Positions 5,841 through 41,914 of a stretch of 41,914 nucleotides of DNA are shown here, piece after piece. The position numbers were made by a program, and so were the translations under genes. The notes under the pieces were generated by a model. That model was not told where the DNA came from. It was given only the letters and a program-made list of their open reading frames with translations, and did not search any database. Within the stretch, counting starts at the first letter, position 1, and the number at the start of each line of letters is the position of its first letter. Origin of the DNA: Coxiellaceae bacterium UBA6002 (GTDB lineage: Bacteria; Pseudomonadota; Gammaproteobacteria; UBA6002); the NCBI GenBank assembly GCA_002429595.1, contig DJAM01000148.1, forward strand, positions 1-41,914. The letters run 5' to 3'.

Positions 5841-8800
5841 ATGAAAAAATGGATGTTAACGCTTATCTCTCTTGGTTATATCAGTCCCATTTTTGCTACA
5901 GCGCATGATTCTTTTCTGGTCACTGGCGAGACTCTAAATGAAGTCGCCAACTATGACCACGTTTTTGATATGCCGAATTTCTTTACGCGTGTTTTTCCGC
6001 AAAACTTAAACCCAAATCTAGTGATAGTACCTAGGACTAATAGTGGCTTCATATTCGGACTAACAGGTGCCTTGCTCCGGTCATTTGATAACCAGACCGA
6101 CTATGTTATTCCCGATACAAGTCCACTGCCTTTCTTGCCAAGCCCTAATAGTAATATTCGTGAGATTAGTCCAGATTACAATTTTGGTTATGGCGGTTAT
6201 CTCGGGTATGTCTATCCATATACTGGCAGAGATATTAAATTTAGTTTCTTCTTGTTTGATGAGAATGTGAATGACTCGATCACGGCGCCTACCGATGGCA
6301 CCTTGTGGACGCCTCTTGCGCTTTATGATCAAACGACAGAAGCTGATGCAGCATTTGCGAAATACACGACCAATTTTTATTCCGCCAAATTAATGATGGG
6401 TCAAAATATTGTTGCCGGCACTCGCCTTCGAATTCACCCCTCACTAGGTTTGCAATATGCAGGTATCAATCGTGAGTTAAAAACAAACTATGGTGCGGCA
6501 TCAGGTATTCTTGATGTGCTGCCATTTGGTGATTCTGTTGTTAAGCAGAAAAGTAACTTCAATGGTATCGGTCCTGCAATACAATTCGATTTAAGTTATT
6601 TCCTTGCGCCACATTTCGCATTAACCGGACATTTACTTAACTCGATTTTGGTCGGTACGATCACGAGCGAAATAAACTACGCAGAAGATCTTTTACTGAC
6701 CACGCCACTTGATTCTGCTCCTGCCAACACGGTAATTAATCTTACATCAGCGAATCGTTGCGTTGCTAATTTAGATGGGAAGTTAGGTTTCTGCTTCGAA
6801 TATCCATTCTGCGGAACTAACACCAAAATGGAGATCGAAATTGGCTACGAGTTTAATCACTTCTTTAATGCAATTGATACCTATCGAAGTGCTGGCGGCG
6901 CATTTTTTGTTGATGAAACCGATCCGCCAGTTTATGTTGACACACCATTGCACATCAAAAACCCCCATGATTTTACAATGGATGGCCCCTATTTAACTTT
7001 GGGGCTTTCTGGTATTTCTTGCCCAGATAATGTTGTGATAGATCCAGTCTGTGTGACTGTTCCGAAACTAGATGGTGGTTTTGTATTTAGTATAGGAGCT
7101 ATTTATTATCGCATGAATCATAACCATACTGATTTTGCGATTTTAGATCCTACCCCGACACTGATTACCGATCCTCTAGTTGATCCAACTGTACCACCTG
7201 TCTTTGTGCCAAGCACTAAATCTACGCTTAAAAATATCGAAAGTGATAGCTCTTACGGCTTAATGTTTGATTTGGGTTATATATTCAGAAAAACTCCGTA
7301 CGACATGACTTTCCACTTTGAAGGCTTGAACGGACAAGATAAAGAACGAGTGACAGCTCCAGCAGCAGGCACTGTGTGGCCTATACTGGTGACACCATTT
7401 TTTAATCCTACACAAACTGGTATGTTCGCAACGCGAGCACATGCAAATCTGAAAAATACATATTACGAGGCGCATCTTGATGTAGGTCAAGCTATTAGCG
7501 CCGACAATTTAGCCTGGTTTAGATTATTTGAAGGGATTGAGTACGCCCGTCTTTATTCTGATCTTCATGTTACTTACGATAATGTCACTACTAATCCATT
7601 CGCGCTTTTCGATGAAATCCCTGATCCGACGTTAACTTATCGAAGGGTTGATGCCGTTTCAAAGAGCCGTTTCAATGGCTACGGTCCTCGAGTTGGTATA
7701 GACATGGCGCTTCCGATGGGTTGGATCAATCTAATTGCCGAGCTAGCAGGTGGTTTCCTCTTTGGAAATATTGACTCAACTTATAGCAACACTTACGAAT
7801 CAGGTGTTTTAACAGGCGCCGATCCTGATGTTGTGTTAGTGCCAGGAGGCAATTTAGGCGCTTCGTTAGACTCACAAAATCAGGTGGCCCCATTTTTAGA
7901 TACAAAAGTTGCGATTGGTTATGGCTTCGATTTTTTTGCAAGAACCAAATGGACGGTTGAATTAGGGTTTAAAGCAGCTCATTACTTTAACGCAGCAACA
8001 ACTTTCCGCCATGTTACTAATAATTCTGCTGATTTCGTTAAGCAAGTTGATGACATCACAGTCAATGGACCTTACTTAAATGTGTCGGTCTTTGGCTTTG
8101 GTGCTTGCCCACCAGACTGTTTACCACGGGATCCTTTCTGCGTCATTGTGCCTGAACTCAAAGGTGGCTTAGAGCTAGCGATTGAATATCTCTATTTGCG
8201 TCCCAATGTGGTTAACGTTGATTACGCTTTAGTTGATCCTGCACCAACATTTGTACCAAATTTGGTTGAACCACCTGTGTTTGCAGATGGTTTTGAATTT
8301 AATCCAAGTGCTAGATCAAGGGTTCAGTTCTTAACGCCGCAATTTGCTTCTGGCTATCGTGCACATGTAGGCTATATCTTTCCACTGACCTCTAATGACA
8401 TTTCAGTTAACTTTGTACAATACGAAGCAAGTTCTTCTGATCATGCTTCAGCGCCTGCCTTTGGTTTGCTTTGGACTATTACTAATGGCAGTTTTGGCTC
8501 TGTCTCAAGTGTTGATCCAACTTTCTTCCCGATCGCAGCCGACCATGCCAACGTGAATGTAGATTTTAATTGGCAGACTGGCAATGTAGAGATGGGTAAA
8601 CGAGTTAAATTTTATAACCTCATGCTGAGAGCTTTTGCAGGTCTGACATACGCTAAAGTGACTGAAAATATCAAGATTACTTATCTAGATGGTTTTTCAG
8701 TGGGTCCCGATACTCTTATTCCAATTGCCTCTGATGCTATTCACCAAGGCAATGACTTCTCCGGATTTGGTCCTCGCTTGGGTGTTGCTGGTGACTTCGG

Positions 8801-9143
8801 TTTTGGCTGTGGCTTTTCGCTGGTCGCACTGGTTGGTACTGACTTGCTAGTTGGCACATTCAATAGTAGTCTCGAAGAGCTTTCTTCAAGTGGTGATTCA
8901 GCAACCTTAAACCCAACGAAAAGAACTCGTTTGGCACCTGCCGTCGACGGCAAGATCGGAATCGCCTACACAATTGCTCTGAAAAACTGTGCTCAAATTA
9001 GTCTTGAAGGCGGTTATCAAATGAATCATTATTTTAATGCGAAAGATAGCTTGCGCTTCACCAGTAATTCCAATGCCTTCATCAAACAAGAACAAGATGT
9101 CAGTTTTGATGGTTGGTATGGCAGATTACAAATTAATTTCTAA
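5841..9143 (+). CDS. Outer membrane protein with three tandem Legionella-type MOMP (porin) domains and a signal peptide
   Basis: 1100 aa. Sec signal MKKWMLTLISLGYISPIFATA. Three ~360-aa repeats start at about nt 6180, 7250 and 8346. Each has Legionella MOMP hallmarks: an aromatic N-terminal strand (NFGYGGYLGYVYPY / SYGLMFDLGYIF / ASGYRAHVGYIF), NG(I/Y/F)GP(A/R)(I/V/L)G, and (Y/F)xxNHYFNA. The final residue is F (Q-I-N-F). Pro-rich linkers carry Cys pairs. Confidence 0.8.
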   Translation: MKKWMLTLISLGYISPIFATAHDSFLVTGETLNEVANYDHVFDMPNFFTRVFPQNLNPNLVIVPRTNSGFIFGLTGALLRSFDNQTDYVIPDTSPLPFLPSPNSNIREISPDYNFGYGGYLGYVYPYTGRDIKFSFFLFDENVNDSITAPTDGTLWTPLALYDQTTEADAAFAKYTTNFYSAKLMMGQNIVAGTRLRIHPSLGLQYAGINRELKTNYGAASGILDVLPFGDSVVKQKSNFNGIGPAIQFDLSYFLAPHFALTGHLLNSILVGTITSEINYAEDLLLTTPLDSAPANTVINLTSANRCVANLDGKLGFCFEYPFCGTNTKMEIEIGYEFNHFFNAIDTYRSAGGAFFVDETDPPVYVDTPLHIKNPHDFTMDGPYLTLGLSGISCPDNVVIDPVCVTVPKLDGGFVFSIGAIYYRMNHNHTDFAILDPTPTLITDPLVDPTVPPVFVPSTKSTLKNIESDSSYGLMFDLGYIFRKTPYDMTFHFEGLNGQDKERVTAPAAGTVWPILVTPFFNPTQTGMFATRAHANLKNTYYEAHLDVGQAISADNLAWFRLFEGIEYARLYSDLHVTYDNVTTNPFALFDEIPDPTLTYRRVDAVSKSRFNGYGPRVGIDMALPMGWINLIAELAGGFLFGNIDSTYSNTYESGVLTGADPDVVLVPGGNLGASLDSQNQVAPFLDTKVAIGYGFDFFARTKWTVELGFKAAHYFNAATTFRHVTNNSADFVKQVDDITVNGPYLNVSVFGFGACPPDCLPRDPFCVIVPELKGGLELAIEYLYLRPNVVNVDYALVDPAPTFVPNLVEPPVFADGFEFNPSARSRVQFLTPQFASGYRAHVGYIFPLTSNDISVNFVQYEASSSDHASAPAFGLLWTITNGSFGSVSSVDPTFFPIAADHANVNVDFNWQTGNVEMGKRVKFYNLMLRAFAGLTYAKVTENIKITYLDGFSVGPDTLIPIASDAIHQGNDFSGFGPRLGVAGDFGFGCGFSLVALVGTDLLVGTFNSSLEELSSSGDSATLNPTKRTRLAPAVDGKIGIAYTIALKNCAQISLEGGYQMNHYFNAKDSLRFTSNSNAFIKQEQDVSFDGWYGRLQINF

Positions 9144-14174: not shown

Positions 14175-14993
14175 ATGGAATGCCCCTTAGACGCTGCTAA
14201 TTATATCAAATCACAACTACCAGAAGGTTTTAAGCCTAAAGTAGGCATTATTTTAGGATCGGGCCTTAATGATTTTGCAAATCAAGTTGGAGATGCCACT
14301 ATTCTTCCATATGCAGAAATTCCTGGCTTTCAAAAATGTAGTGTGCCAGGACATAAAGGAGTTCTAATATTAGGGTCATTAAACGGAGTACCTGTTGCGT
14401 GTATGCAAGGAAGAGCCCATTACTATGAAGGTTATCCCCATGCCGCGGTTTTTAATCCGATTAGAGCATTGAGATTGTTAGGAGTTGAAACGATGATCCT
14501 GACCAATGCTTCAGCTTCATTAAGGCCGGAGGTACAGCCTGGTAGCTTAGTGCTTATCAGTGATCACATTAATTTTACCGGTCAAAATCCGCTAGTTGGA
14601 CCGAATGATGAATTCTTCGGACCTCGTTTTCCTTCCATGCAACGTGTCTATGATCAAGGCTTAGTCGAAATTACTTCTGCTGTCGCTTTAGAACTAGATA
14701 TTAAACTGCATTCGGGTGTTTATTTAGCGGTATTGGGCCCTTCCTATGAAACACCCGCTGAAATTCGTGCCTTTAAAATTTTAGGAGCAGATTTGGTAGG
14801 AATGTCGACTGTGGCAGAAGCCATCATCGCAAGACATTGCAATTTAAAAGTGTTAGCAATCTCTACAGTAACAAATATGGCAAGTGGCATGAGCGAAGAA
14901 TTTTTAACTCACGAAGCCGTTCTTAAGGTAGGCAAAATGGCAGCAGATGATTTAACTCGATTGGTTAAAGCAATAGTTAAAAGAATGTCTTAG
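14175..14993 (+). CDS. Purine nucleoside phosphorylase (PNP/MTAP family, trimeric type)
   Basis: 272 aa. GILGSGL, GRAHYYEGY (PNP signature GRxHxYEG), LGADLVGMSTV. Confidence 0.8.
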   Translation: MECPLDAANYIKSQLPEGFKPKVGIILGSGLNDFANQVGDATILPYAEIPGFQKCSVPGHKGVLILGSLNGVPVACMQGRAHYYEGYPHAAVFNPIRALRLLGVETMILTNASASLRPEVQPGSLVLISDHINFTGQNPLVGPNDEFFGPRFPSMQRVYDQGLVEITSAVALELDIKLHSGVYLAVLGPSYETPAEIRAFKILGADLVGMSTVAEAIIARHCNLKVLAISTVTNMASGMSEEFLTHEAVLKVGKMAADDLTRLVKAIVKRMS

Positions 14994-15634
14994 TGATAAC
15001 GTACACATTTAAGATTTTTTGTTTGCAAGGCAAATTCAAAAATAAGTAATGGTATTATCCAAGAAAACCAGCTTAGAAAAGTTACGATATTTTCTACGGT
15101 ACTAACACGCAAAAAAACAAGAGCTTTTTGTGATAGCGGAAAGACTGTGAAAGAAACAATAGCTATATAGCTTCTAATCATCCACTTTTGATGCAAAGCT
15201 ATCTGTTTTCTACGGATTGAATGATAGCCCATAACAGCGCTTGTAAAACAAACTACAGCTAATGTTCCAAGTCCAGTTGCATAAATAAAATGCTTTTGAG
15301 CTGCCCAAGCCAAAAAAAATGCAGCTATTGATCCTACTAATACAGCGACTAAATATATCTTTCCAATCGAGCGATGAATATTAATATTTTTAGTTCTTAA
15401 GAAATCTATAAATTGCAAAGGGCCGCAAATCATCGCAACAAGTCCGCATATGATATGCAAATATAGCCATGAGCGATGAGGCAAATAAACCGATCCTATA
15501 AAATATTTTGGGATTCGTCGCCAAATCGCATAACAGCTAGCTATGACTAAGAGTAACCATCCAACCTTAACTAGCACTTTTTGAGCAGTGTTAAATGGTT
15601 TAAATGAAACTCCAGCATTATCATATATCTTCAT
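14990..15634 (-). CDS. Integral membrane protein (DUF2306-like), 5-6 TM
   Basis: 214 aa, hydrophobic throughout. Convergently overlaps the PNP gene by 4 nt. Confidence 0.5.
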   Translation of the reverse strand: MKIYDNAGVSFKPFNTAQKVLVKVGWLLLVIASCYAIWRRIPKYFIGSVYLPHRSWLYLHIICGLVAMICGPLQFIDFLRTKNINIHRSIGKIYLVAVLVGSIAAFFLAWAAQKHFIYATGLGTLAVVCFTSAVMGYHSIRRKQIALHQKWMIRSYIAIVSFTVFPLSQKALVFLRVSTVENIVTFLSWFSWIIPLLIFEFALQTKNLKCVRYH

Positions 15635-15871
15635 CAGGTTATTCTACCTACTAGAAGAAGGAGGTGTCTCAGTAAAAATTTAAATAAGTGGTCGTCGTTC
15701 AGGCTGTTGACCTCGCTCTGACAACCGTAAAAAATGCTGTAAAGTTGCATTAATATATGAATTTTGATTGATCTTTTACCTTTTTGTGACTGAATTGGTC
15801 GTTTAGTAAAATCCTCGACTGAATATGACGCTCCGGTCTGCTCAGAAATACTTTCAAAATTTAGTTCATTA

Positions 15872-16273
15872 TCAGGATTGCTTTGTTGCTGCATCAACTA
15901 AGCTGGCTAAAAGTTCTTCAAATTGTTTTATTTTCTCCGGGAATTCAGTAACCCCATATTCGGAAAATAAATGGTCAATGTCATGATAAGCAACAACGGT
16001 CTTCTCATTTTCTTGCCAGGCAACGATTTTTAAAGGTAGCTCAATACCAATATCAGGCATTTGAACCATAAGCGGTGTCCCTGCTTTGGGATTCCCAAAA
16101 ATAATAAGCTCTTCATCTTGCATCGTTAAGCCCGCATCTTGTGCGGCTTTGCTATGACTAATCCGAGCGAATATCTTAATATTTTTTTCTTTTAATATTC
16201 TTTCGACATTGTCGATAACGTCCGTAACAGAAAGATTTGAGATCGTCTTGATTAAGGGTGATTTTTTAGACAT
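15872..16273 (-). CDS. DUF302 domain protein
   Basis: Start moved to ATG 16273 (MSKKSPL...), which is preceded by GGAGGAATTAAAA. The track ORF extends upstream without an RBS. Confidence 0.6.
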   Translation of the reverse strand: MSKKSPLIKTISNLSVTDVIDNVERILKEKNIKIFARISHSKAAQDAGLTMQDEELIIFGNPKAGTPLMVQMPDIGIELPLKIVAWQENEKTVVAYHDIDHLFSEYGVTEFPEKIKQFEELLASLVDAATKQS

Positions 16274-16325
16274 TTTTAATTCCTCCGTGTAATACAAGCT
16301 TAAGATTTGAAGTTTACACAATTGT

Positions 16326-16360
16326 TTGTCGCTGATGTTAATTTAGTCTGACATCATTTT
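16326..16360. repeat. Left copy of the imperfect direct repeat bounding the inserted islet (non-coding copy)
   Basis: ttgtcgctgatgttaatttagtctgacatcatttt matches 18023-18057 (ttgtcgttgctcctaatttagtctgacataatttt) at about 29/35 positions, with a 16-bp perfect core taatttagtctgacat. Confidence 0.55.
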
Positions 16361-16579
16361 CTAATCAATAGTTAATAGGTGATAATAAGTCGTTACTTAC
16401 TTCTCTTGAAAACACAACACTAAGTGGTATAATAAATAAAAAGAAAGGGAATGAAAATCTTTAAAAACAAATTCTTTTCAAAATGGGCAAAGTCAGAAAA
16501 ACTGTAAACGTGCGGGCAAACACATCTTCTAATCAATAAGTTTTTACTTCAATCTTCTTCTCACAATTAACAAAGGAGA

Positions 16580-16891
16580 ATGAAGTGGATAAAGAAGAAC
16601 AAGCATCGCGATATAAAAAATGGCGAGATTTCATCGACGAGCAAGAAGCAAGCGGGAACATTTTCACCCTTTACAATTAAACAACCACCTGCACTAGGAC
16701 GCAAAAATTGGCTCTTCAGTGCTAGTCCTTCTGGAGCAAAAGCAGGTGCAATATTCTTCTCTTTAATTGAAACTTGCAAAGCAAATGATGTTGAACCATA
16801 TCATTATTTTTGCGTGATGTTAAATCGCATTCGGGAATGTGTGACTGAAGATGATTACCCCAAGCTGCTCCCGCAGTTTATCCAGATTTAG
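16580..16891 (+). pseudogene. IS66-family transposase (TnpC) C-terminal fragment, remnant
   Basis: The last ~65 aa (ALGRKNWLFSASPSGAKAGAIFFSLIETCKANDVEPYHYFCVMLNRI...LLP) match the conserved IS66 TnpC C-terminus (..LGRKNWLF.GS..G...AA..YSLIETAKLNG..P..YL..VL..I). Nothing upstream resembles the rest of the transposase. Confidence 0.65.
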
Positions 16892-16938
16892 CTATACGCA
16901 ACAAGAAGATTTTTTTAATTTATTAGGTAACGAGGTTC

Positions 16939-17238
16939 ATGTTTATGAATATATTATGTGAAATGGAGGTTTTTGAGTTTTTTAAGCTTTCATCCGGGGA
17001 CATAGCATTAGCAGGGGAAATGAAGCCAAACAGTAATAAATTTATTTTTGAAAGTAAGGCGGATTTATATATCGATGGCAATCTTATTAAAAAAATTATT
17101 TTAATCGGAGAGGATATTTTCTCTGGCGGTGATAGAGAAAAACGTGCTAACAGGAGAGCTGTTAGAACTAAGGATGATATCCATGAGCTGTTGAGTAATT
17201 CTTTGAATAACATCAAACTTATTATTTATGATAAATAA
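16939..17238 (+). pseudogene. Decayed HigB-2-like toxin paralog
   Basis: Shares the DGNLIKK heptapeptide and the spacing to an SGG motif with the downstream toxin ORF (DGNLIKK+9aa+SGG in both). DNA gatggcaatcttattaaaaaa vs gatggaaatctaataaaaaag matches at 18/21. The N-terminus VFEFFKL resembles the HigB-2 N-terminus. The catalytic C-terminal half has diverged. Confidence 0.3.
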
Positions 17239-17281
17239 TTTAATAATTATGTTCAAAGCACTCAAGTGTTCTTAACCGCAC

Positions 17282-17599
17282 GTGACTGACTCAGCTCTTT
17301 TAAAGGCCGCCGAAGAAATTGGGCAGGGCTTAATTGATGCCAATTTAGATGGAAATCTAATAAAAAAGCGAGTGGCACGAAAAGGTCAAGGGAAGAGTGG
17401 CGGATTTAGAACTATTGTGGCTTTTCAGCGTGGATATAGAATTATTTTTATTTATGGATTTACAAAAAATCAGCGCGACAACATAACAGAACAAGAAGAA
17501 AAAGCACTTAAAAAATTAGCTCAAATTTTGGTAGAGGCAACTGACAGTGAGTTAAAACAAATGATCATACATAGAGATTTATACGAGGTACTTCCATGA
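17282..17599 (+). CDS. Type II toxin, RelE/ParE superfamily, HigB-2-like (toxin-first architecture)
   Basis: 105 aa, GTG start. The core KGQGKSGGFRTIVAFQRGYRIIFIYGFTKNQRDNIT matches Vibrio HigB-2 as remembered (KGKGKRGGSRIIYYF...RFYLLTIYGKNEMSDL). Its stop overlaps the start of the downstream HTH gene (ATGA). Confidence 0.7.
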   Translation: MTDSALLKAAEEIGQGLIDANLDGNLIKKRVARKGQGKSGGFRTIVAFQRGYRIIFIYGFTKNQRDNITEQEEKALKKLAQILVEATDSELKQMIIHRDLYEVLP

Positions 17600-17943
17600 A
17601 TAGAGCAAAAAAAAGCAAGCATCCAAGCATTTTAGAAGCTGTTCATGAAACAGCCAAAGGCTTATATGATGCTCAGATTATTAACCCTACTACAATGCGA
17701 GAGTTCAATGAACTTTGTTTGCCACCTGTAAAAGATCTTTCTGCTAACGAAATTAAAAAAATCCGTTTGCGCGAAAAGGTGAGTCAGGCTGTGTTTGCAA
17801 AGTTTTTAAATACAACCTTATCCACTGTAAGACAATGGGAACAAGGTGAAAAACATCCAAGAGGAACCTCTTTAAAGTTGCTTACTCTTGTTAAAGAAAA
17901 AGGGCTTAGCGTACTTTTACCTGTGACTCAAGTCACAGTGTAG
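17596..17943 (+). CDS. HTH (XRE/NadS-like) antitoxin, HigA-2-like
   Basis: 115 aa. VSQAVFAKFLNTTLSTVRQWEQGEKHPRGTSLKLL matches the HigA-2/COG2944 HTH antitoxin pattern (SQAVFA..L.VS..TVQ.WEQG...P.G.AL.LL). Confidence 0.75.
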   Translation: MNRAKKSKHPSILEAVHETAKGLYDAQIINPTTMREFNELCLPPVKDLSANEIKKIRLREKVSQAVFAKFLNTTLSTVRQWEQGEKHPRGTSLKLLTLVKEKGLSVLLPVTQVTV

Positions 17944-17998
17944 AAGTAAATGATTTAGCGCCTTTAGTTTTAAGCAACCCTAAAAAAACTCTAAGATC

Positions 17999-18775
17999 TT
18001 ACTGTGTGCAATCTCGATTGCTTGTCGTTGCTCCTAATTTAGTCTGACATAATTTTGCATTAACTAGCATTGCTTCTGTTATCGTCGAGCCATTTACGGT
18101 ACTGTTTGCTAAATTTGCTTGGTTAAAATTAGTTTGTTTGAATGCTTGCTCTGGTGAATTATCGCATGGTGTTAATTCTGAATTGCTTAGATTTGCATTG
18201 GAGAAATTCGCTTTTGTGAAATCTGCATTAATTTTGCTGTTGCTGAGGTTTGCTTTAGAAAAATTACAGTGAGTAAAATCGGCGCCACAGCCACCCATTG
18301 GAGGGCGAACTGTAAGGTTTGTCATGTGAGCGTTCTGGAAATTTGAGTTGATGAACGAAGAGTGCTCAAGAAACGTTGCGCCGTTTAATTTGGCATTTTG
18401 AAAGTTGGTGCGGTTGGCGATGACGGCGTTGAAATGTGAGCCGCTTAAATTCGCGTTTTTGAATGATGCGCCTTTTAAAATCACCTTGCCTACTTGTGGT
18501 GATATTCCGGGTCCAAAATCTGCAGGGCTAAAATAAGCATTGGTTAGATTAGCGCCATCAAATTTCGCGCCAGTTAAATTACAAATTAACGTGCTTTGGC
18601 TGTTTTTGGTCACTAAAGTTTTACTGTCACCTAAAACAAAATTGGTTAAATTTGCATTCGTTAAATCGCAATGTGGACAGCTACACGTCGTTTTTAACTT
18701 ATTAAGATCTTGTTGATTAAAACCGAAAGTGGTGCAGGTTATTCCTAATAATAAGACAAATAGTATATTTTTCAT
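17999..18775 (-). CDS. Secreted pentapeptide-repeat protein
   Basis: 258 aa. Sec signal MKNILFVLLLGITCTTFG. Long run of A(N/D)L(S/T)x pentapeptides (ANLTN, ANLSG, ANLSNS, ANFSNANLSNSELT...). Its 3' end is the right copy of the islet direct repeat. Confidence 0.8.
   Translation of the reverse strand: MKNILFVLLLGITCTTFGFNQQDLNKLKTTCSCPHCDLTNANLTNFVLGDSKTLVTKNSQSTLICNLTGAKFDGANLTNAYFSPADFGPGISPQVGKVILKGASFKNANLSGSHFNAVIANRTNFQNAKLNGATFLEHSSFINSNFQNAHMTNLTVRPPMGGCGADFTHCNFSKANLSNSKINADFTKANFSNANLSNSELTPCDNSPEQAFKQTNFNQANLANSTVNGSTITEAMLVNAKLCQTKLGATTSNRDCTQ
18023..18057. repeat. Right copy of the islet-bounding direct repeat; encodes the C-terminus of the pentapeptide-repeat protein
   Basis: See 16326-16360. 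This copy is in frame (..KLCQTKLGATTSNRDCTQ*). Confidence 0.55.
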
Positions 18776-18787
18776 TTTGTACCTCGT

Positions 18788-20074
18788 TTAGTGAAGTTTA
18801 AAATGCGGTTTAATTTTTCGTGTTAAACGATTGGCAAGTGTTAACAGAAAAACACGCCAAGGGCCATGTAGAATTGCTTGATGTTTTTTGTATAACGATA
18901 AATAAAAAAGACGCGCTAACTTTCCTTCAATCAAGAAGCTGCCTGTAAATCTGCCCATGAGACTGCCAAAGGTATTTCGTTCGCTCGTCGAAATAAGTGA
19001 GCCGTAATCTTTATATTTAAAGTTAGCTAATCGTTTTCCTTCGAGATAACGTGGTATGGTTTTAGCCAAATAAGCCGCTTGTTGGCTTGCTACTTGCGCC
19101 CGTGGAGGTAAAGATTCTTTTTCATTTATTTTTAAATGGCCACAATCGCCCAGCGCAAAAATTGAATCATCAACAATGGTTTGTAATGTTGGTTTAATTT
19201 CGATTTGATTTAAATTGTTAAGAGGTAAGTCTCCTAATTCTTTGGTAATTTCATCGACTTTTACCCCTGCTGCCCAAACTATCATAGTGGCTGGAATTTT
19301 TTTGTCAGCTTTGGTTATGACAGTATCATTATCAATTTCCTTGACGAGCTCATTCACCAGAACGGTAATATTACGTTTTAGTAGCTCTTCAGTGACGACT
19401 TTAGAGATCCGTTCCGGAAGGTTTGCCAAAATTCTTGGTGCTGCTTCAATAAGCGTAATTTTGAATGCTTGTTTAGGATTGACTTGATCAAAGCCAAATT
19501 TCTTGACTTGGTCTAGCATGTAATTTAATTCAGCAGCAAGCTCAACACCTGTGGCGCCGCCTCCTACAATGACAATATTGAGTTCGTTGAGTAGATTATT
19601 TTGGATTCGCAGAATATTTTTTAATAAGACTTGTTGGAAAAGATCGGCTTCTTTGCGTTCGTCCAAGAAAAGACAATTCTCTTTGACACCTTTAACTCTT
19701 AAATCATTAGTAACACTACCAATTGCTAACACTAATACATCATAGGAGAGTTCGCGCTCTGGTAAAACTTCAACATTATTTTCGCTGTTGATTGCATCAA
19801 GATAAATTATTTTGCGCTGACGATCTAAGCCTTTAAGTTTACCAAGGTGGAAAGTGTAGTGGTTTCGACTGGCATGGACGAGATAACTGAGTTCATCTTC
19901 ATTAGCATCAAGCGTGCCAGCTGCAACTTCATGCAACAAAGGCTTCCACAAATGAGTGGGGTTTTGATCAACTAAAATTATTTTTGCTTGTTCTTTTTTT
20001 CCTAATGTCTTACCCAACCGAGTAGCAAGTTCCAAACCACCGGCTCCGCCACCTACGATGACAACCTGTTTCAT
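18788..20074 (-). CDS. ndh: Type II NADH dehydrogenase (NDH-2), FAD/NAD(P)-binding
   Basis: Two Rossmann GxGxxG motifs (VVIVGGGAGGLE, IVIVGGGATGVELAAEL). Start placed at ATG 20074 (MKQVVIVGGG), which overlaps the stop of the upstream small gene in ATGA. Confidence 0.85.
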   Translation of the reverse strand: MKQVVIVGGGAGGLELATRLGKTLGKKEQAKIILVDQNPTHLWKPLLHEVAAGTLDANEDELSYLVHASRNHYTFHLGKLKGLDRQRKIIYLDAINSENNVEVLPERELSYDVLVLAIGSVTNDLRVKGVKENCLFLDERKEADLFQQVLLKNILRIQNNLLNELNIVIVGGGATGVELAAELNYMLDQVKKFGFDQVNPKQAFKITLIEAAPRILANLPERISKVVTEELLKRNITVLVNELVKEIDNDTVITKADKKIPATMIVWAAGVKVDEITKELGDLPLNNLNQIEIKPTLQTIVDDSIFALGDCGHLKINEKESLPPRAQVASQQAAYLAKTIPRYLEGKRLANFKYKDYGSLISTSERNTFGSLMGRFTGSFLIEGKLARLFYLSLYKKHQAILHGPWRVFLLTLANRLTRKIKPHFKLH

Positions 20075-37646: not shown

Positions 37647-38978
37647 CTAATTGGATAATGGGAATTTAGCGATAAGGTAAAGCGGGTAATTACAGATGTC
37701 ATTATCCTGTTTCAAGTTCAACAATGTTGCACGTGATACAAAAGGAAGTTGATATTTTTGTTGATAAACACGTAAGCTTTTCTGCTTTGTAGTTGTGTTT
37801 GCTTTGACCTCTAAAGGAAAAATTTGATCTTCTACAGGCACTAAAAAATCTATTTCTGCTGTTCCTTCGCTAGTCCAGTAATACAGTTTGTCGTCGTATT
37901 TTACTTGCAGTTCTTGTGCGACATAATTTTCGGTTAAAGCGCCTTTGAATTCAGTGAAAAGCTCGTTACCTTCAACAATAACTTTAGGGAGTAGCTGGCT
38001 CATAGCTCCAAGTAATCCTAAGTCGAGTAAAAAAACTTTAAAAACGTTTTTATTTGCATAACTATTCAGAGGTAATCTTGGTGTTGAGGTATGATATGAT
38101 TTGTGTATTAATCCAGCATCTGTGAGCCATTGTAAAGCTGTCTCATACTCACGACCACGAGCCCCTTTACGTAAAGCTGAGAAAATAAATTTTTTATTCT
38201 CTTTAGCTAATTGACCTGGTATAGATTCCCAGATAGTTGTGATCTTCATGATTTCATTTGCTGGAGCGTGCTTAGCGAAATCTGCGATATACCCAGTTAA
38301 AATTTCTTGATGTACCGTGCGTACTAAAGAGAAATCGTTATTATCTATAAAAGCTTTTACAGCTTCTGGCATACCTCCTACAACAAAATAATATTTTAGA
38401 AAACCAATCAATTGTTCATGAATGGGTATAGGTAAAGGTTCAAAATGTATGAGACTTTCCAAAAGTTCTCTTAGTTTGTGTTTTTCAATTGCATCGAGAA
38501 ACTCAAAAAAACTTAATGGATATAAATCTAAAAAATTTACTTTTCCTACAGGAAATCCTTTTGCTCCTGCTAACTTAACGCCTAACAGTGAGCCGGCACT
38601 CACAACAGCAAAATCATTTGCTTCTTCATTAAAATACTTAAGACTTGTTAATGCATTAGGGCATTCCTGAACTTCGTCAAATATAATTAAAGTGCTTTCC
38701 GGTTTAATTGGTTGATCTAAGTATATGCTAATGTTTTGAACGATAGTTTGTGGATTTAAATTGCCACTAAAGAATTCTCTTGCTGCTGGGTTTTCTTCAA
38801 AATTTAAATAACAATAATTTTCATACTCATTAGTAGCAAATTCTTTCAACAAATAGGTTTTACCTACTTGTCTTGCTCCTCGCATGACTAAAGGTTTGCG
38901 GCTGGGGGAAGTTTTCCAGGAGAGTAATTGTTTATAAGCATCACGTTTCATATGCTGTATCTTAGCAAAACGTGACAT
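37647..38978 (-). CDS. AAA+ ATPase with C-terminal DUF4143 (PD-(D/E)xK nuclease-like) domain, COG1373 family
   Basis: 443 aa. Walker A GARQVGKT. Walker B LIIFDEVQ. C-terminal EIDFLV...PLEVKA resembles a PD-(D/E)xK core. AT-rich flanks. Confidence 0.8.
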   Translation of the reverse strand: MSRFAKIQHMKRDAYKQLLSWKTSPSRKPLVMRGARQVGKTYLLKEFATNEYENYCYLNFEENPAAREFFSGNLNPQTIVQNISIYLDQPIKPESTLIIFDEVQECPNALTSLKYFNEEANDFAVVSAGSLLGVKLAGAKGFPVGKVNFLDLYPLSFFEFLDAIEKHKLRELLESLIHFEPLPIPIHEQLIGFLKYYFVVGGMPEAVKAFIDNNDFSLVRTVHQEILTGYIADFAKHAPANEIMKITTIWESIPGQLAKENKKFIFSALRKGARGREYETALQWLTDAGLIHKSYHTSTPRLPLNSYANKNVFKVFLLDLGLLGAMSQLLPKVIVEGNELFTEFKGALTENYVAQELQVKYDDKLYYWTSEGTAEIDFLVPVEDQIFPLEVKANTTTKQKSLRVYQQKYQLPFVSRATLLNLKQDNDICNYPLYLIAKFPLSN

Positions 38979-39039
38979 ATATCACAATATTCCATCGTAA
39001 AATGTGATCAATTTCACAATATTCATTTGAATAATGTGA
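38979..39039. promoter_or_regulatory. Tandem palindromic operators containing a near-consensus CRP-type site TGTGA-N6-TCACA
   Basis: Two 29-bp units, (t)atcacaatattcc..aaaatgtgat (38979-39007) and tttcacaatattca..taatgtgat (39011-39039), with a ~32-bp period. The junction reads aaaaTGTGAtcaattTCACAat (39002-39017), which matches the CRP consensus TGTGA-N6-TCACA. It sits 20-60 bp upstream of the ATPase start codon. Confidence 0.4.
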
Positions 39040-41285: not shown

Positions 41286-41914
41286 CTACCGGCATAGCCG
41301 GTAGTTTGAATTAAACCCCCTAGAAGGGGGTAATACTTGATACCTACCAAGTTGGTTTAACTTTAGTAGTTCATCAAATTTAATTGCCGTTCATCTTCAG
41401 CTCGATCGTGCTCTTCTTGGGTTCGTATGTAATCTAACACCTTCGCCTCTGCTAAACCCGTAGTACTTACACAGTACCCCCGCGACCAAAAATTTTGACC
41501 CTTCATATTCTTTTGACGTCCATACCTTTGGTGCAACAGAATCGTCGTTTTTCCTTTCAACTTTCCTATCACTTCCGATACTGAATATTTCGGCGGGATC
41601 TCCAGACACATATGTACGTGATCTCTCCTTACGTTCCCTTCAACTACTTTTATTTCGTATCGTTCACATACTTCCCGTAGGATCTGACCTATCACTTTTC
41701 GTAGGACTCCATACATTACTTTTTTGCGGTACTTTGGTACTATCACTACGTGGTAATGACAATACCACCTTACATGACTTTGATTTTTCCAATGTCTTAA
41801 CATGCTCTTTCTCCTTGTGAAACTTGGTAGGTCTCACTTGGAGAAAGGCATACTCTTTAACTCTTTTCAATGCTTTTTCGGCAATGCCCTTGTTTTTCAC
41901 ACCGGCATAGCCGG
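41286..41914 (-). mobile_element. IS200/IS605-family insertion sequence (extends beyond the window end)
   Basis: Subterminal hairpins ctaccggcatagccggtag (41286-41304) and (c)accggcatagccgg (41899-41914, truncated) flank tnpA. A second hairpin ccccctagaaggggg (41316-41330) acts as a terminator-like structure 3' of tnpA. Confidence 0.8.
41363..41803 (-). CDS. tnpA: IS200/IS605 family Y1 (HuH) transposase TnpA
   Basis: 146 aa. RWYCHYHVVIVPKYRKKV, HuH motif DHVHMCLEIPPKYSVSEVIGKLKGKTT, and catalytic Tyr region WSRGYCVSTTG...VLDYI closely match Salmonella IS200 TnpA as remembered. Confidence 0.88.
   Translation of the reverse strand: MLRHWKNQSHVRWYCHYHVVIVPKYRKKVMYGVLRKVIGQILREVCERYEIKVVEGNVRRDHVHMCLEIPPKYSVSEVIGKLKGKTTILLHQRYGRQKNMKGQNFWSRGYCVSTTGLAEAKVLDYIRTQEEHDRAEDERQLNLMNY

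What the first reader, a model, noticed from the sequence alone, without database searches (positions are those of the whole stretch)
16322..18060. ~1.7-kb degraded insertion bounded by 35-bp imperfect direct repeats, one forming the 3' end of the pentapeptide-repeat gene
ttgtcgctgatgttaatttagtctgacatcatttt (16326-16360, non-coding with an in-frame stop) and ttgtcgttgctcctaatttagtctgacataatttt (18023-18057, which encodes the last residues of the pentapeptide-repeat protein) are direct repeats of ~35 bp with a 16-bp perfect core. They flank a segment holding an IS66 transposase C-terminal fragment, a decayed higB-like ORF and an intact HigB2/HigA2-like toxin-antitoxin pair. This is the signature of an integrative element that inserted into the 3' end of a gene and regenerated it with its own att copy. 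No integrase remains, so it appears to be a remnant stabilised by the TA module.
Basis: seen in the sequence. Interest (0 to 1): 0.55.

Follow-up and report, generated by a model that had tools for sequence, protein, structure and literature searches.

The report
Old insertion scar with broken toxin-antitoxin
The repeat is real: it is a decayed second copy of the end of a pentapeptide-repeat gene, left behind when foreign DNA (a toxin-antitoxin operon) went into a recurrently used gap between two converging housekeeping genes, which is an ordinary kind of genomic scar.

Summary
The direct repeat exists and is not chance. It is 40/51 identical without gaps and about 82 nt with gaps, and no shuffle reached its score. 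The copy at 18017-18067 is native coding sequence, because the C-terminus it encodes is conserved in homologues. The copy at 16290-16371 is a non-coding duplicate.

Related contigs show the true empty site is pentapeptide gene -> <- purine nucleoside phosphorylase (PNP) gene, 4-6 bp apart. It is not DUF302|pentapeptide. All of 14994-17998 is lineage-specific. It comprises a DUF302-DUF2306 module and a toxin-antitoxin (TA) module, separated by the repeat copy.

A 48-nt copy of the PNP 3' end sits beside the pentapeptide stop. A relative (L002) has different cargo at the same junction, flanked by the same duplicated gene ends.

The "decayed higB ORF" is the first 18 codons of the same RelE/HigB2-like toxin gene. 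A 780-nt IS66-derived remnant splits that gene, so the TA pair is not intact.

No integrase occurs in the 41.9-kb contig. The distal copy evolves neutrally between strains.

Best reading: a relic of Campbell-type integration at a hot spot, enzyme unknown. This is ordinary and of low interest.

The parts
14175..14993 (+). Purine nucleoside phosphorylase (PNP) gene. It is the conserved right-hand flank of the hot spot. In empty-site relatives its 3' end abuts the pentapeptide gene.
   Evidence: PF01048. NCBIfam NF006054 scores 360 bits against a cut-off of 218. Synteny in L002, L003, L004, L008 and L023.
14990..16273 (-). Cargo module 2: DUF2306 membrane protein (14990-15634), a doubtful orf87 (15634-15897) and the DUF302 gene (15872-16273). 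It is absent from this locus in L002, L003, L004 and L008.
   Evidence: Pfam hits. Gene lists of relatives. Between strains, DUF302 differences fall mostly at third codon positions (23 of 35), so it is a live gene. orf87 spans a 143-nt indel relative to L023.
16290..16371 (.). P': the distal, non-coding copy of the last ~66 nt of the pentapeptide gene, plus its stop and ~15 nt of the ancestral PNP tail. The perfect core is at 16339-16354. It carries an in-frame TGA and a 4-6-nt deletion.
   Evidence: It is only ~79% identical to the same element in sister strain L023, so it evolves neutrally.
16406..16433 (+). Near-consensus sigma-70 promoter of the TA operon: TTGAAA, 16-nt spacer, TG, TATAAT. 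It lies 18 nt upstream of the toxin start codon.
   Evidence: 11 of 12 matches plus an extended -10. This is a consensus match only; function is inferred.
16451..16507 (+). 5' end of the toxin gene: 18 codons (MKIFKNKFFSKWAKSEKL), followed by a stop created by the insertion.
   Evidence: Read from the sequence. Joined to 17285-17599, it matches PF06296 over positions 1-120 of 120 at 149 bits, against 120 bits for positions 19-120 alone. It aligns without gaps to full-length toxins of L016, L019 and Aquicella.
16505..17284 (+). Internally deleted IS66-family remnant of 780 nt, inserted in the toxin gene. Imperfect terminal inverted repeats lie at 16504-16524 and 17267-17286. It holds a TnpC C-terminal fragment (16580-16891) and a conserved small orf99 (16939-17238). 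No target duplication is recognisable.
   Evidence: PF13817. Inverted repeat I15. The left end GTAAACGTGCGGGCAA resembles the Legionella antarctica IS66 end GTATCCGTTCGGTGAA. A tblastn search gives 54% identity to that transposase. orf99 has three homologues at 54-78% identity.
17285..17599 (+). 3' part of the toxin gene (codons 19-122). It could be expressed only as an N-terminally truncated protein from GTG 17282.
   Evidence: PF06296 positions 19-120 of 120. Distant match to V. cholerae HigB-2 structures, E 5.5e-4.
17596..17943 (+). Intact HTH-Xre antitoxin gene (HigA2-like). It overlaps the toxin stop by 4 nt.
   Evidence: PF01381. Match to HigA-2 structures, E 3.9e-7. 75-82% identical to the aligned homologues in other contigs.
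17950..17997 (.). N'': a decayed 48-nt copy of the PNP gene's 3' end, lying directly after the pentapeptide stop. With the next part it preserves the ancestral pentapeptide|PNP junction.
   Evidence: The L002 PNP 3' end aligns here at 77% over 48 nt, E 1e-5. It is 78% identical to the L002 PNP tail but only 64% to this genome's present PNP tail.
17999..18067 (-). P: the native 3' end of the pentapeptide-repeat gene and the proximal repeat copy. The perfect core is at 18035-18050.
   Evidence: The C-terminus AKLCxTKL...SNRDC is conserved in homologues P0002, P0003, P0004 and P0006. It is identical in L023.
17999..18775 (-). Pentapeptide-repeat protein gene (258 aa). It is the conserved left-hand flank of the hot spot.
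   Evidence: PF00805. Homologues and synteny.

Best explanation
The repeat is an integration scar. In the ancestor, the pentapeptide-repeat gene and the PNP gene converged with only a few bases between their stop codons. Foreign DNA entered at that junction more than once.

Each entry most likely followed the Campbell model. A circular molecule carrying a copy of the junction recombined with the chromosomal junction, which leaves one junction copy on each side of the cargo.

In this genome the proximal copy is 18067-17950: the pentapeptide end plus 48 nt of PNP tail. The distal copy is 16371-16290. The cargo between them was originally nothing but a ~0.8-kb HigB2/HigA2-like toxin-antitoxin operon with its promoter.

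A second module (DUF302-DUF2306) lies between the distal copy and the PNP gene. Later an IS66 element landed in the toxin gene after codon 18 and decayed to 780 nt. That left a split toxin gene and an intact antitoxin gene.

Shown:
- the duplication;
- the empty site in relatives;
- different cargo with the same duplicated ends in a relative;
- the split toxin gene;
- the neutral decay of the distal copy.

Inferred:
- the circular intermediate;
- the order of events;
- the recombination enzyme, which could be a recombinase acting in trans or RecA acting on the shared junction sequence. This is unknown.
For: - Repeat significance.
- The proximal copy is native coding sequence.
- Empty sites, with pentapeptide and PNP 4-6 bp apart, in L003 and L004/L005.
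- L002 has 2.7 kb of unrelated cargo (an AAA_14/DUF4143 ATPase and orf246) at the same junction. It is flanked by a ~90-nt pentapeptide-end duplicate. A 125-nt, 90%-identical PNP-end duplicate lies inside it.
- The duplicates start at nearly the same place in both genomes: 69 vs 63 nt before the gene end.
- A PNP-tail copy lies next to the pentapeptide stop in both genomes.
- The duplicates have different ages. JC distances are 0.41, 0.22 and 0.11, so there was more than one event.
- The cargo between the copies, minus the IS remnant, is ~798 nt. That is a promoter, the toxin gene and the antitoxin gene.
- Related TA pairs occur as compact two-gene inserts in other housekeeping contexts, and on Aquicella and Coxiella plasmids.
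Against: - No integrase or other recombinase gene lies in the insert or anywhere in the 41.9-kb contig, nor in the L002 insert.
- No excised or circular form has been seen, and no element carrying this junction together with an integrase.
- The lengths of the duplicated PNP tails differ (15, 35, 48 and 125 nt). A single precise crossover site does not predict that.
- No pentapeptide-end copy is detectable next to the PNP gene in this genome, or upstream of the internal PNP-end copy in L002.
- Only five lineages of this clade are in the databases, so the census of empty and occupied sites is small.
- The age estimates rest on fewer than 130 sites. They do not exclude a single ancient duplication followed by cargo turnover.
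Confidence: 0.6

Rival explanations
1. A self-encoded tyrosine-integrase element targeted the 3' end of the pentapeptide gene and re-supplied that end from its own attP. It later lost its integrase, and the TA module retains the remnant. That would make it a CIME-like (cis-mobilisable element) remnant that a related integrase might still move.
For: Direct repeats at a gene's 3' end, an empty site in relatives, and the same left boundary of the duplicate in two genomes with different cargo. In the Aquicella lusitana plasmid, the closest TA relative sits next to tyrosine-recombinase gene fragments.
Against: - No integrase or fragment of one is present here or in L002.
- The gene-side copy is no more divergent from the L002 orthologue than the rest of the gene: 81% vs 79%.
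- The distal copy decays neutrally, including inside the 16-bp core. It is 79% identical between strains that are 98% identical overall.
- The toxin gene is split, so TA addiction is unlikely to act now.
- The space between the copies holds only the TA operon and the IS remnant. No room is left for a deleted integrase unless the deletion was exact.
Confidence: 0.2
2. There was one ancient duplication of the junction in the common ancestor of this lineage and L002. The cargo between the copies then turned over by ordinary recombination. On this view the TA operon was not delivered by the event that made the repeat.
For: - Both genomes share the same layout: the pentapeptide end plus a short PNP tail on one side, and a pentapeptide-end copy on the other.
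- The two distal copies share two derived substitutions (AGC AAT CGN to AAC ART TGN).
- The P-P' distance here (0.41) is compatible with the per-lineage neutral distance of 0.33-0.53.
- The patchy divergence against L023 shows that recombination is active at this locus.
Against: - The L002 duplicates are younger (0.22 and 0.11) than the lineage split.
- The L002 distal copy shares lineage-specific bases with its own gene copy.
- The TA operon fills the space between the copies exactly, which fits better with it being the cargo that was delivered.
Confidence: 0.15
3. The junction is a Xer/dif-type site, and the inserts are integrase-less IMEX elements that use the host's XerL recombinase, as LME-1 does in Legionella.
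For: The organism looks like a member of the Legionellales, where a single-recombinase dif/XerL system with an IMEX is known (PMC9765430). The inserts lack integrases and are arranged in tandem.
Against: - There is no GC-skew inflection anywhere in the contig.
- In empty genomes the repeated sequence is coding sequence of two genes, with only 4-6 bp between them. The Legionellales dif is described as a ~30-bp non-coding palindromic site.
- The core is not palindromic.
- The distal copy is not conserved.
Confidence: 0.03
4. The similarity is chance, or reflects a shared functional motif such as a terminator, in AT-rich DNA.
For: The genome is AT-rich (about 38% GC). With up to 3 mismatches, the 16-mer core gives 2 or more matches in 17 of 100 shuffles of the window.
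Against: The full alignment far exceeds all shuffles. An independent genome shows the same duplication. No terminator-like or RNA structure lies at either copy.
Confidence: 0.02

Closest known systems
Degenerate integrative islets / cis-mobilisable elements (CIMEs) flanked by att repeats at a gene's 3' end, for example the CIMEs derived from ICESt1/ICESt3 at the fda gene of Streptococcus thermophilus (recalled from my own knowledge, not tested here)
   Same: Imperfect direct repeats made of the target gene's 3' end flank a small cargo that has no recombination genes. Several modules sit in tandem, separated by repeat copies. Empty sites occur in relatives.
   Different: No cognate integrase-bearing element is known for this site. 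The duplicated block spans the ends of two convergent genes. The distal copy is not conserved between strains, so present-day mobility is unlikely.
Integration hot spots between conserved core genes, the general pattern of bacterial genome plasticity (for example Oliveira, Touchon and Rocha 2017; recalled from my own knowledge)
   Same: The flanking core genes are the same in five lineages, but the content differs: empty, 0.4 kb, 2.7 kb and 3.0 kb. Strain-level recombination patches occur at the locus.
   Different: Here the junction sequence itself is duplicated around the cargo. That points to single-crossover (Campbell-type) entry rather than double-crossover replacement through the flanks.
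Vibrio cholerae HigB-2/HigA-2 toxin-antitoxin system (PDB 5JA8, 5JAA)
   Same: The toxin gene lies upstream of the antitoxin gene. The toxin has a RelE-fold and the antitoxin has a C-terminal HTH. Sequence matches are detectable.
   Different: The relationship is distant (E 5.5e-4 and 3.9e-7). The toxin belongs to Pfam PF06296. The toxin gene here is split by an IS remnant. It is not in an integron cassette.
IS66-family insertion sequences
   Same: A TnpC C-terminal domain (PF13817). Terminal inverted repeats that begin GTAA and resemble those of a Legionella antarctica IS66.
   Different: Only ~780 nt remain. tnpA, tnpB and most of tnpC are missing. There is no 8-bp target duplication. An extra conserved 99-aa ORF lies between the tnpC end and the right inverted repeat.

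Membership tests
Site-specific integrative element (genomic islet, tyrosine-recombinase type) | Direct repeats (attL/attR) flank the element, and one overlaps the 3' end of the target gene | tested here: met
   16321-16371 vs 18017-18067, 40/51 identical, above all shuffles. One copy lies inside the pentapeptide gene.
Site-specific integrative element (genomic islet, tyrosine-recombinase type) | Empty target site in related genomes | tested here: met
In L003 and L004/L005, pentapeptide and PNP are 4-6 bp apart.
Site-specific integrative element (genomic islet, tyrosine-recombinase type) | An integrase or recombinase gene within or next to the element | tested here: not met
   None among the ORFs of the insert, nor among any ORF of at least 110 aa in the 41.9-kb window. 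None among the ORFs scanned in the L002 insert (the ATPase and orf246).
Cis-mobilisable element (CIME) | att sites kept functional and recognised by a related element's integrase acting in trans | tested here: not met
   The distal copy is only ~79% identical between strains that are 98-100% identical in the flanks, and has 2 changes inside the 16-bp core. No cognate integrase is known. Trans-mobilisation itself cannot be tested with these tools.
IMEX at a dif/Xer site | A ~28-30-bp partly palindromic non-coding site at the replication terminus (GC-skew switch) | tested here: not met
   No skew inflection. The site is coding sequence of two genes in empty genomes. The core is not palindromic. 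Criteria were taken from PMC9765430.
Integron gene cassette | An attC site (imperfect inverted repeats) at the cassette end and an intI/attI platform | tested here: not met
   No integrase family was found. No inverted-repeat structure is shared by the two copies: the 6-bp stem in the 16326-16360 copy is absent from the other.
Type II toxin-antitoxin, PF06296 RelE / HTH-Xre (HigB2/HigA2-like) | Adjacent toxin and antitoxin genes in one operon, toxin first, with a promoter | tested here: met
   PF06296 and PF01381. 4-nt overlap at 17596-17599. Promoter-like site at 16406-16433. PDB matches to HigB-2 and HigA-2.
Type II toxin-antitoxin, PF06296 RelE / HTH-Xre (HigB2/HigA2-like) | Uninterrupted, full-length toxin gene | tested here: not met
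   Codons 1-18 (16451-16504) are separated from codons 19-122 (17285-17599) by 780 nt. The sister strain L023 has the same state.
IS66 family | tnpA-tnpB-tnpC genes, terminal inverted repeats starting GTAA, and an 8-bp target duplication | tested here: inconclusive
   A TnpC C-terminal fragment and similar inverted repeats are present. tnpA, tnpB and most of tnpC are absent. No target duplication is visible. It is a remnant, not a functional member.

The most novel reading that the evidence does not exclude
The junction of the two convergent genes might act as a capture site for small, integrase-less cassettes: a TA operon, a DUF4143 ATPase, a DUF302-DUF2306 module. Each cassette would travel as a circle carrying a copy of the junction itself, and would enter by recombination with the resident junction. 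That would give an integron-like tandem array whose 'attC' is a duplicated piece of host gene ends, with no dedicated integrase.
Probability: 0.12. Interest if true: 0.55.

Novelty: new member of a known kind. Interest (0 to 1): 0.25.

Why it matters
The main value is correct annotation. The locus is a small variable islet in an uncultured Legionellales-like bacterium. The toxin-antitoxin pair is disabled, leaving a split toxin gene and an orphan antitoxin gene. The true ancestral site is now known.

It also gives a clean example of a hot spot whose target straddles the ends of two convergent genes, with both ends duplicated. That could guide a search for whatever recombinase, if any, serves this site. 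Nothing here challenges current understanding.

Tried and rejected
1. The genome-contig scan with the NDH-2 protein gave only a 49%-identical Coxiellales MAG without synteny. It was no use for the empty-site question.
2. The metagenome-contig scan with the pentapeptide alignment gave one unrelated 28% hit.
3. A viral-contig scan for the repeat core gave one hit inside a phage tail-protein gene that happens to encode SEKLCQTKLEKF. This was chance.
4. BLASTN of the 1.8-kb segment against phages found nothing. Against plasmids, only the TA genes matched, at about 70% (Aquicella, Coxiella pQpH1). No homologous island with an integrase turned up. The IS remnant and orf99 have no plasmid DNA or protein match beyond generic IS66 transposases.
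5. The dif/XerL idea was rejected on GC skew, coding location and lack of a palindrome. The pQpH1 region around the antitoxin homologue showed no link to XerL.
6. I looked for a third pentapeptide-end copy next to the PNP gene here, and upstream of the internal PNP-end copy in L002. Neither rose above shuffles.
7. I tested whether related TA cassettes (L016, L018) or the window's own DUF4143 ATPase gene (37647-38978) are flanked by duplicated gene ends. They are not.
8. I tested whether the gene-side copy is foreign, by comparing divergence along the gene against L002. There was no signal.
9. There is no tRNA or Rfam RNA gene at the site.
10. No 8-bp target duplication could be found for the IS66 remnant. 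A 4-bp ACTG reading would put the toxin gene out of frame, so I rejected it.
11. The contexts of P0004 and P0007 were too short, or had no DNA available.
Full report
**The observation**

The two 35-mers are in the sequence. One is at 16326-16360 as stated. They match at 30 of 35 positions and share a perfect 16-bp core, which occurs exactly twice in the window.

The similarity is longer than reported:
- 40/51 without gaps, 16321-16371 vs 18017-18067;
- about 82 nt with one small gap.

In 100 dinucleotide shuffles of 15800-18900, the best direct-repeat score was 16, against 22 observed. In 500 shuffles, the best local alignment score was 34, against 60.5 observed. The repeat is real.

**What lies between the copies**

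Pfam confirms the following:
- an IS66 TnpC C-terminal fragment (16580-16891);
- a PF06296 RelE-type toxin ORF (17282-17599);
- an HTH-Xre antitoxin (17596-17943).

The toxin ORF matches only profile positions 19-120 of 120. Joining the two pieces gives a full-length match (positions 1-120, 149 bits against 120). The joined protein aligns without gaps to intact toxins from other contigs and from an Aquicella lusitana plasmid.

So one toxin gene is split after codon 18 by 780 nt (16505-17284). This insert has:
- imperfect terminal inverted repeats (pair I15) that resemble those of a Legionella antarctica IS66;
- the TnpC tail;
- a 99-aa ORF with three homologues elsewhere.

No target duplication is visible.

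Without this insert, the DNA between the repeat copies is about 798 nt. That is a near-consensus promoter (16406-16433), the toxin gene and the antitoxin gene, and nothing else. Both proteins are distant relatives of V. cholerae HigB-2 and HigA-2.

**Which copy is native**

Homologues of the pentapeptide protein at 48-84% identity keep the C-terminus AKLCxTKL...SNRDC. The copy inside the gene is therefore ordinary coding sequence.

The gene's last 69 nt are 81% identical to the L002 orthologue, and the rest of the gene is 79%. Nothing suggests that the gene end was imported.

**The empty site**

The exact-protein look-ups returned syntenic contigs from five lineages.
- L003 (55% protein identity) and L004/L005 (48%): the pentapeptide gene is followed, 4-6 bp later, by the convergent purine nucleoside phosphorylase (PNP) gene.
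- The window: 3.0 kb separates the two genes, namely DUF2306, orf87, DUF302, the distal repeat copy and the TA module.
- L002 (84% identity): 2.7 kb of unrelated cargo lies there, an AAA_14/DUF4143 ATPase and a 246-aa ORF.
- L008: 0.4 kb lies there, and the pentapeptide gene is truncated.

This is a recurrently used hot spot.

**The duplicated block is the junction of both genes**

In L002 the last ~63 nt of the pentapeptide gene and the following ~27 nt recur at 7801-7890, directly abutting the real PNP end. Identity is 75-82%. A 125-nt copy of the PNP 3' end, 90% identical, lies in the middle of the insert.

In the window, the 48 nt after the pentapeptide stop (17997-17950) are a decayed copy of a PNP 3' end. 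The L002 PNP end aligns there at 77%, E 1e-5. That stretch is closer to the L002 tail (78%) than to this genome's present PNP tail (64%).

Written in the direction of the pentapeptide gene, the two arrays are:
- window: [pentapeptide end + PNP tail 48 nt] TA [pentapeptide-end copy + ~15 nt of tail] DUF302-DUF2306 [PNP];
- L002: [pentapeptide end + tail 35 nt] ATPase [tail 125 nt] orf246 [pentapeptide-end copy + PNP].

The pentapeptide-end copies start 69 and 63 nt before the gene end in the two genomes.

This layout is what a single crossover produces between a circle carrying a junction copy and the chromosomal junction (the Campbell model), repeated at least twice per genome.

**Age and constraint**

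A sister strain (L023) is 98% identical overall and has the same architecture, including the split toxin gene. Differences between the two strains cluster in 15700-16500:

| Segment | Identity, window vs L023 |
|---|---|
| DUF302 | 91% (23 of 35 differences at third codon positions) |
| TA promoter region | 89% |
| Distal repeat copy | ~79% |
| IS remnant, TA genes, pentapeptide end | almost identical |

The distal copy therefore evolves at about the neutral rate, including inside the core. It is not a maintained recombination site.

Jukes-Cantor (JC) distances between duplicates are:
- 0.41 for the window's pentapeptide-end pair;
- 0.22 for the L002 pair;
- 0.11 for the L002 PNP-end pair.

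The distance between the two lineages at fourfold-degenerate sites is 0.66-1.06. These rough figures indicate several events of different ages, none of them recent.

**The enzyme**

No tyrosine or serine recombinase domain was found in the insert or in any ORF of at least 110 aa in the contig. None was found in the ORFs scanned in the L002 insert.

A Xer/dif explanation is known for Legionellales (PMC9765430), but it does not fit:
- there is no GC-skew switch;
- the site is coding sequence in empty genomes;
- the core is not palindromic.

No tRNA or other RNA gene is present.

Related TA pairs occur as compact inserts in other housekeeping contexts without flanking repeats. The repeats are therefore a property of this site, not of the TA module.

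I cannot tell whether a recombinase acting in trans or RecA acting on the shared junction made the insertions. The similar left boundary in two genomes favours a defined site. The variable lengths of the PNP-tail copies favour homologous exchange.

**Verdict**

It is wrong on several points: the empty site, the single-gene target, the intact TA pair and the stabilisation claim.

The organism is an uncultured, AT-rich Legionellales-like bacterium. This is a new example of a well-known kind of thing, a degraded islet at an integration hot spot, and it deserves a low interest score.

The only unusual aspect is that the duplicated target spans the ends of two convergent genes and that small integrase-less modules sit in tandem there. 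A cassette-capture reading cannot be excluded, but it has little support.

Noticed in passing
window 15700-16500 (compared with L023 4340-5100): Against the 98%-identical sister strain L023, nearly all differences fall in this block. DUF302 is 91% identical, the repeat copy 79% and the TA promoter 89%. The adjoining IS66 remnant, TA genes and pentapeptide gene are almost identical. The sharp boundary sits at the left end of the IS remnant (about 16504), which suggests a recombination patch imported from a more divergent strain.
   Followed up: partly
window 15797-15810 (L023 4923-5079): L023 has about 143 extra bases here, inside the window's 87-aa ORF (15634-15897). That ORF has no family match, so it is probably not a gene. 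L023's DUF2306 gene is also split into two ORFs.
   Followed up: partly
window 16939-17238: The 99-aa ORF inside the IS66 remnant has no Pfam, NCBIfam or plasmid match. It does have three homologues (54-78% identity) in other metagenome contigs, so it may be a real passenger gene of an IS66 relative.
   Followed up: partly
window 37647-38978 and 38967-39030: A solitary AAA_14/DUF4143 ATPase gene sits among housekeeping genes. The same family is the cargo at the L002 hot spot and lies next to the TA pair in L016. There are no flanking direct repeats here. An imperfect 32-nt tandem repeat lies at its 5' end: the first copy overlaps the start codon and the second lies upstream.
   Followed up: partly
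L008 9540-10030 (and protein P0007): In another lineage the pentapeptide gene is about 50 codons shorter (208-210 aa). About 0.4 kb with two small unassignable ORFs separates it from the PNP gene. This is a third state of the same hot spot.
   Followed up: partly
window 41363-41803: An IS200/IS605-family Y1 transposase gene (NCBIfam NF033573, 134 bits) lies near the end of the contig.
   Followed up: no
window 5841-9143: A 1100-aa protein matches the Legionella major outer-membrane protein domain (PF05150) in three stretches. This supports a Legionellales-like origin for the contig.
   Followed up: no
L011 2574-4455 (Aquicella lusitana plasmid 5): The closest DNA relative of the TA pair (70% identity) sits beside tyrosine-recombinase gene fragments interrupted by an IS4 element, on a small plasmid that also has a MipZ/ParA-like partition gene.
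   Followed up: no
L016 1044-1066 and 3568-3590: A 23-nt, 83%-identical direct repeat of the purN 3' end flanks an ATPase-HxlR-orf204 segment that lies just upstream of a related TA pair. It may be a similar scar or may be chance.
   Followed up: no
L025 1124-1160: In a more distant lineage (P0004), a GC-rich hairpin (atcccgcgacttgatcgcgggat) follows the pentapeptide gene, rather than the PNP gene end, within the 85 nt available.
   Followed up: no
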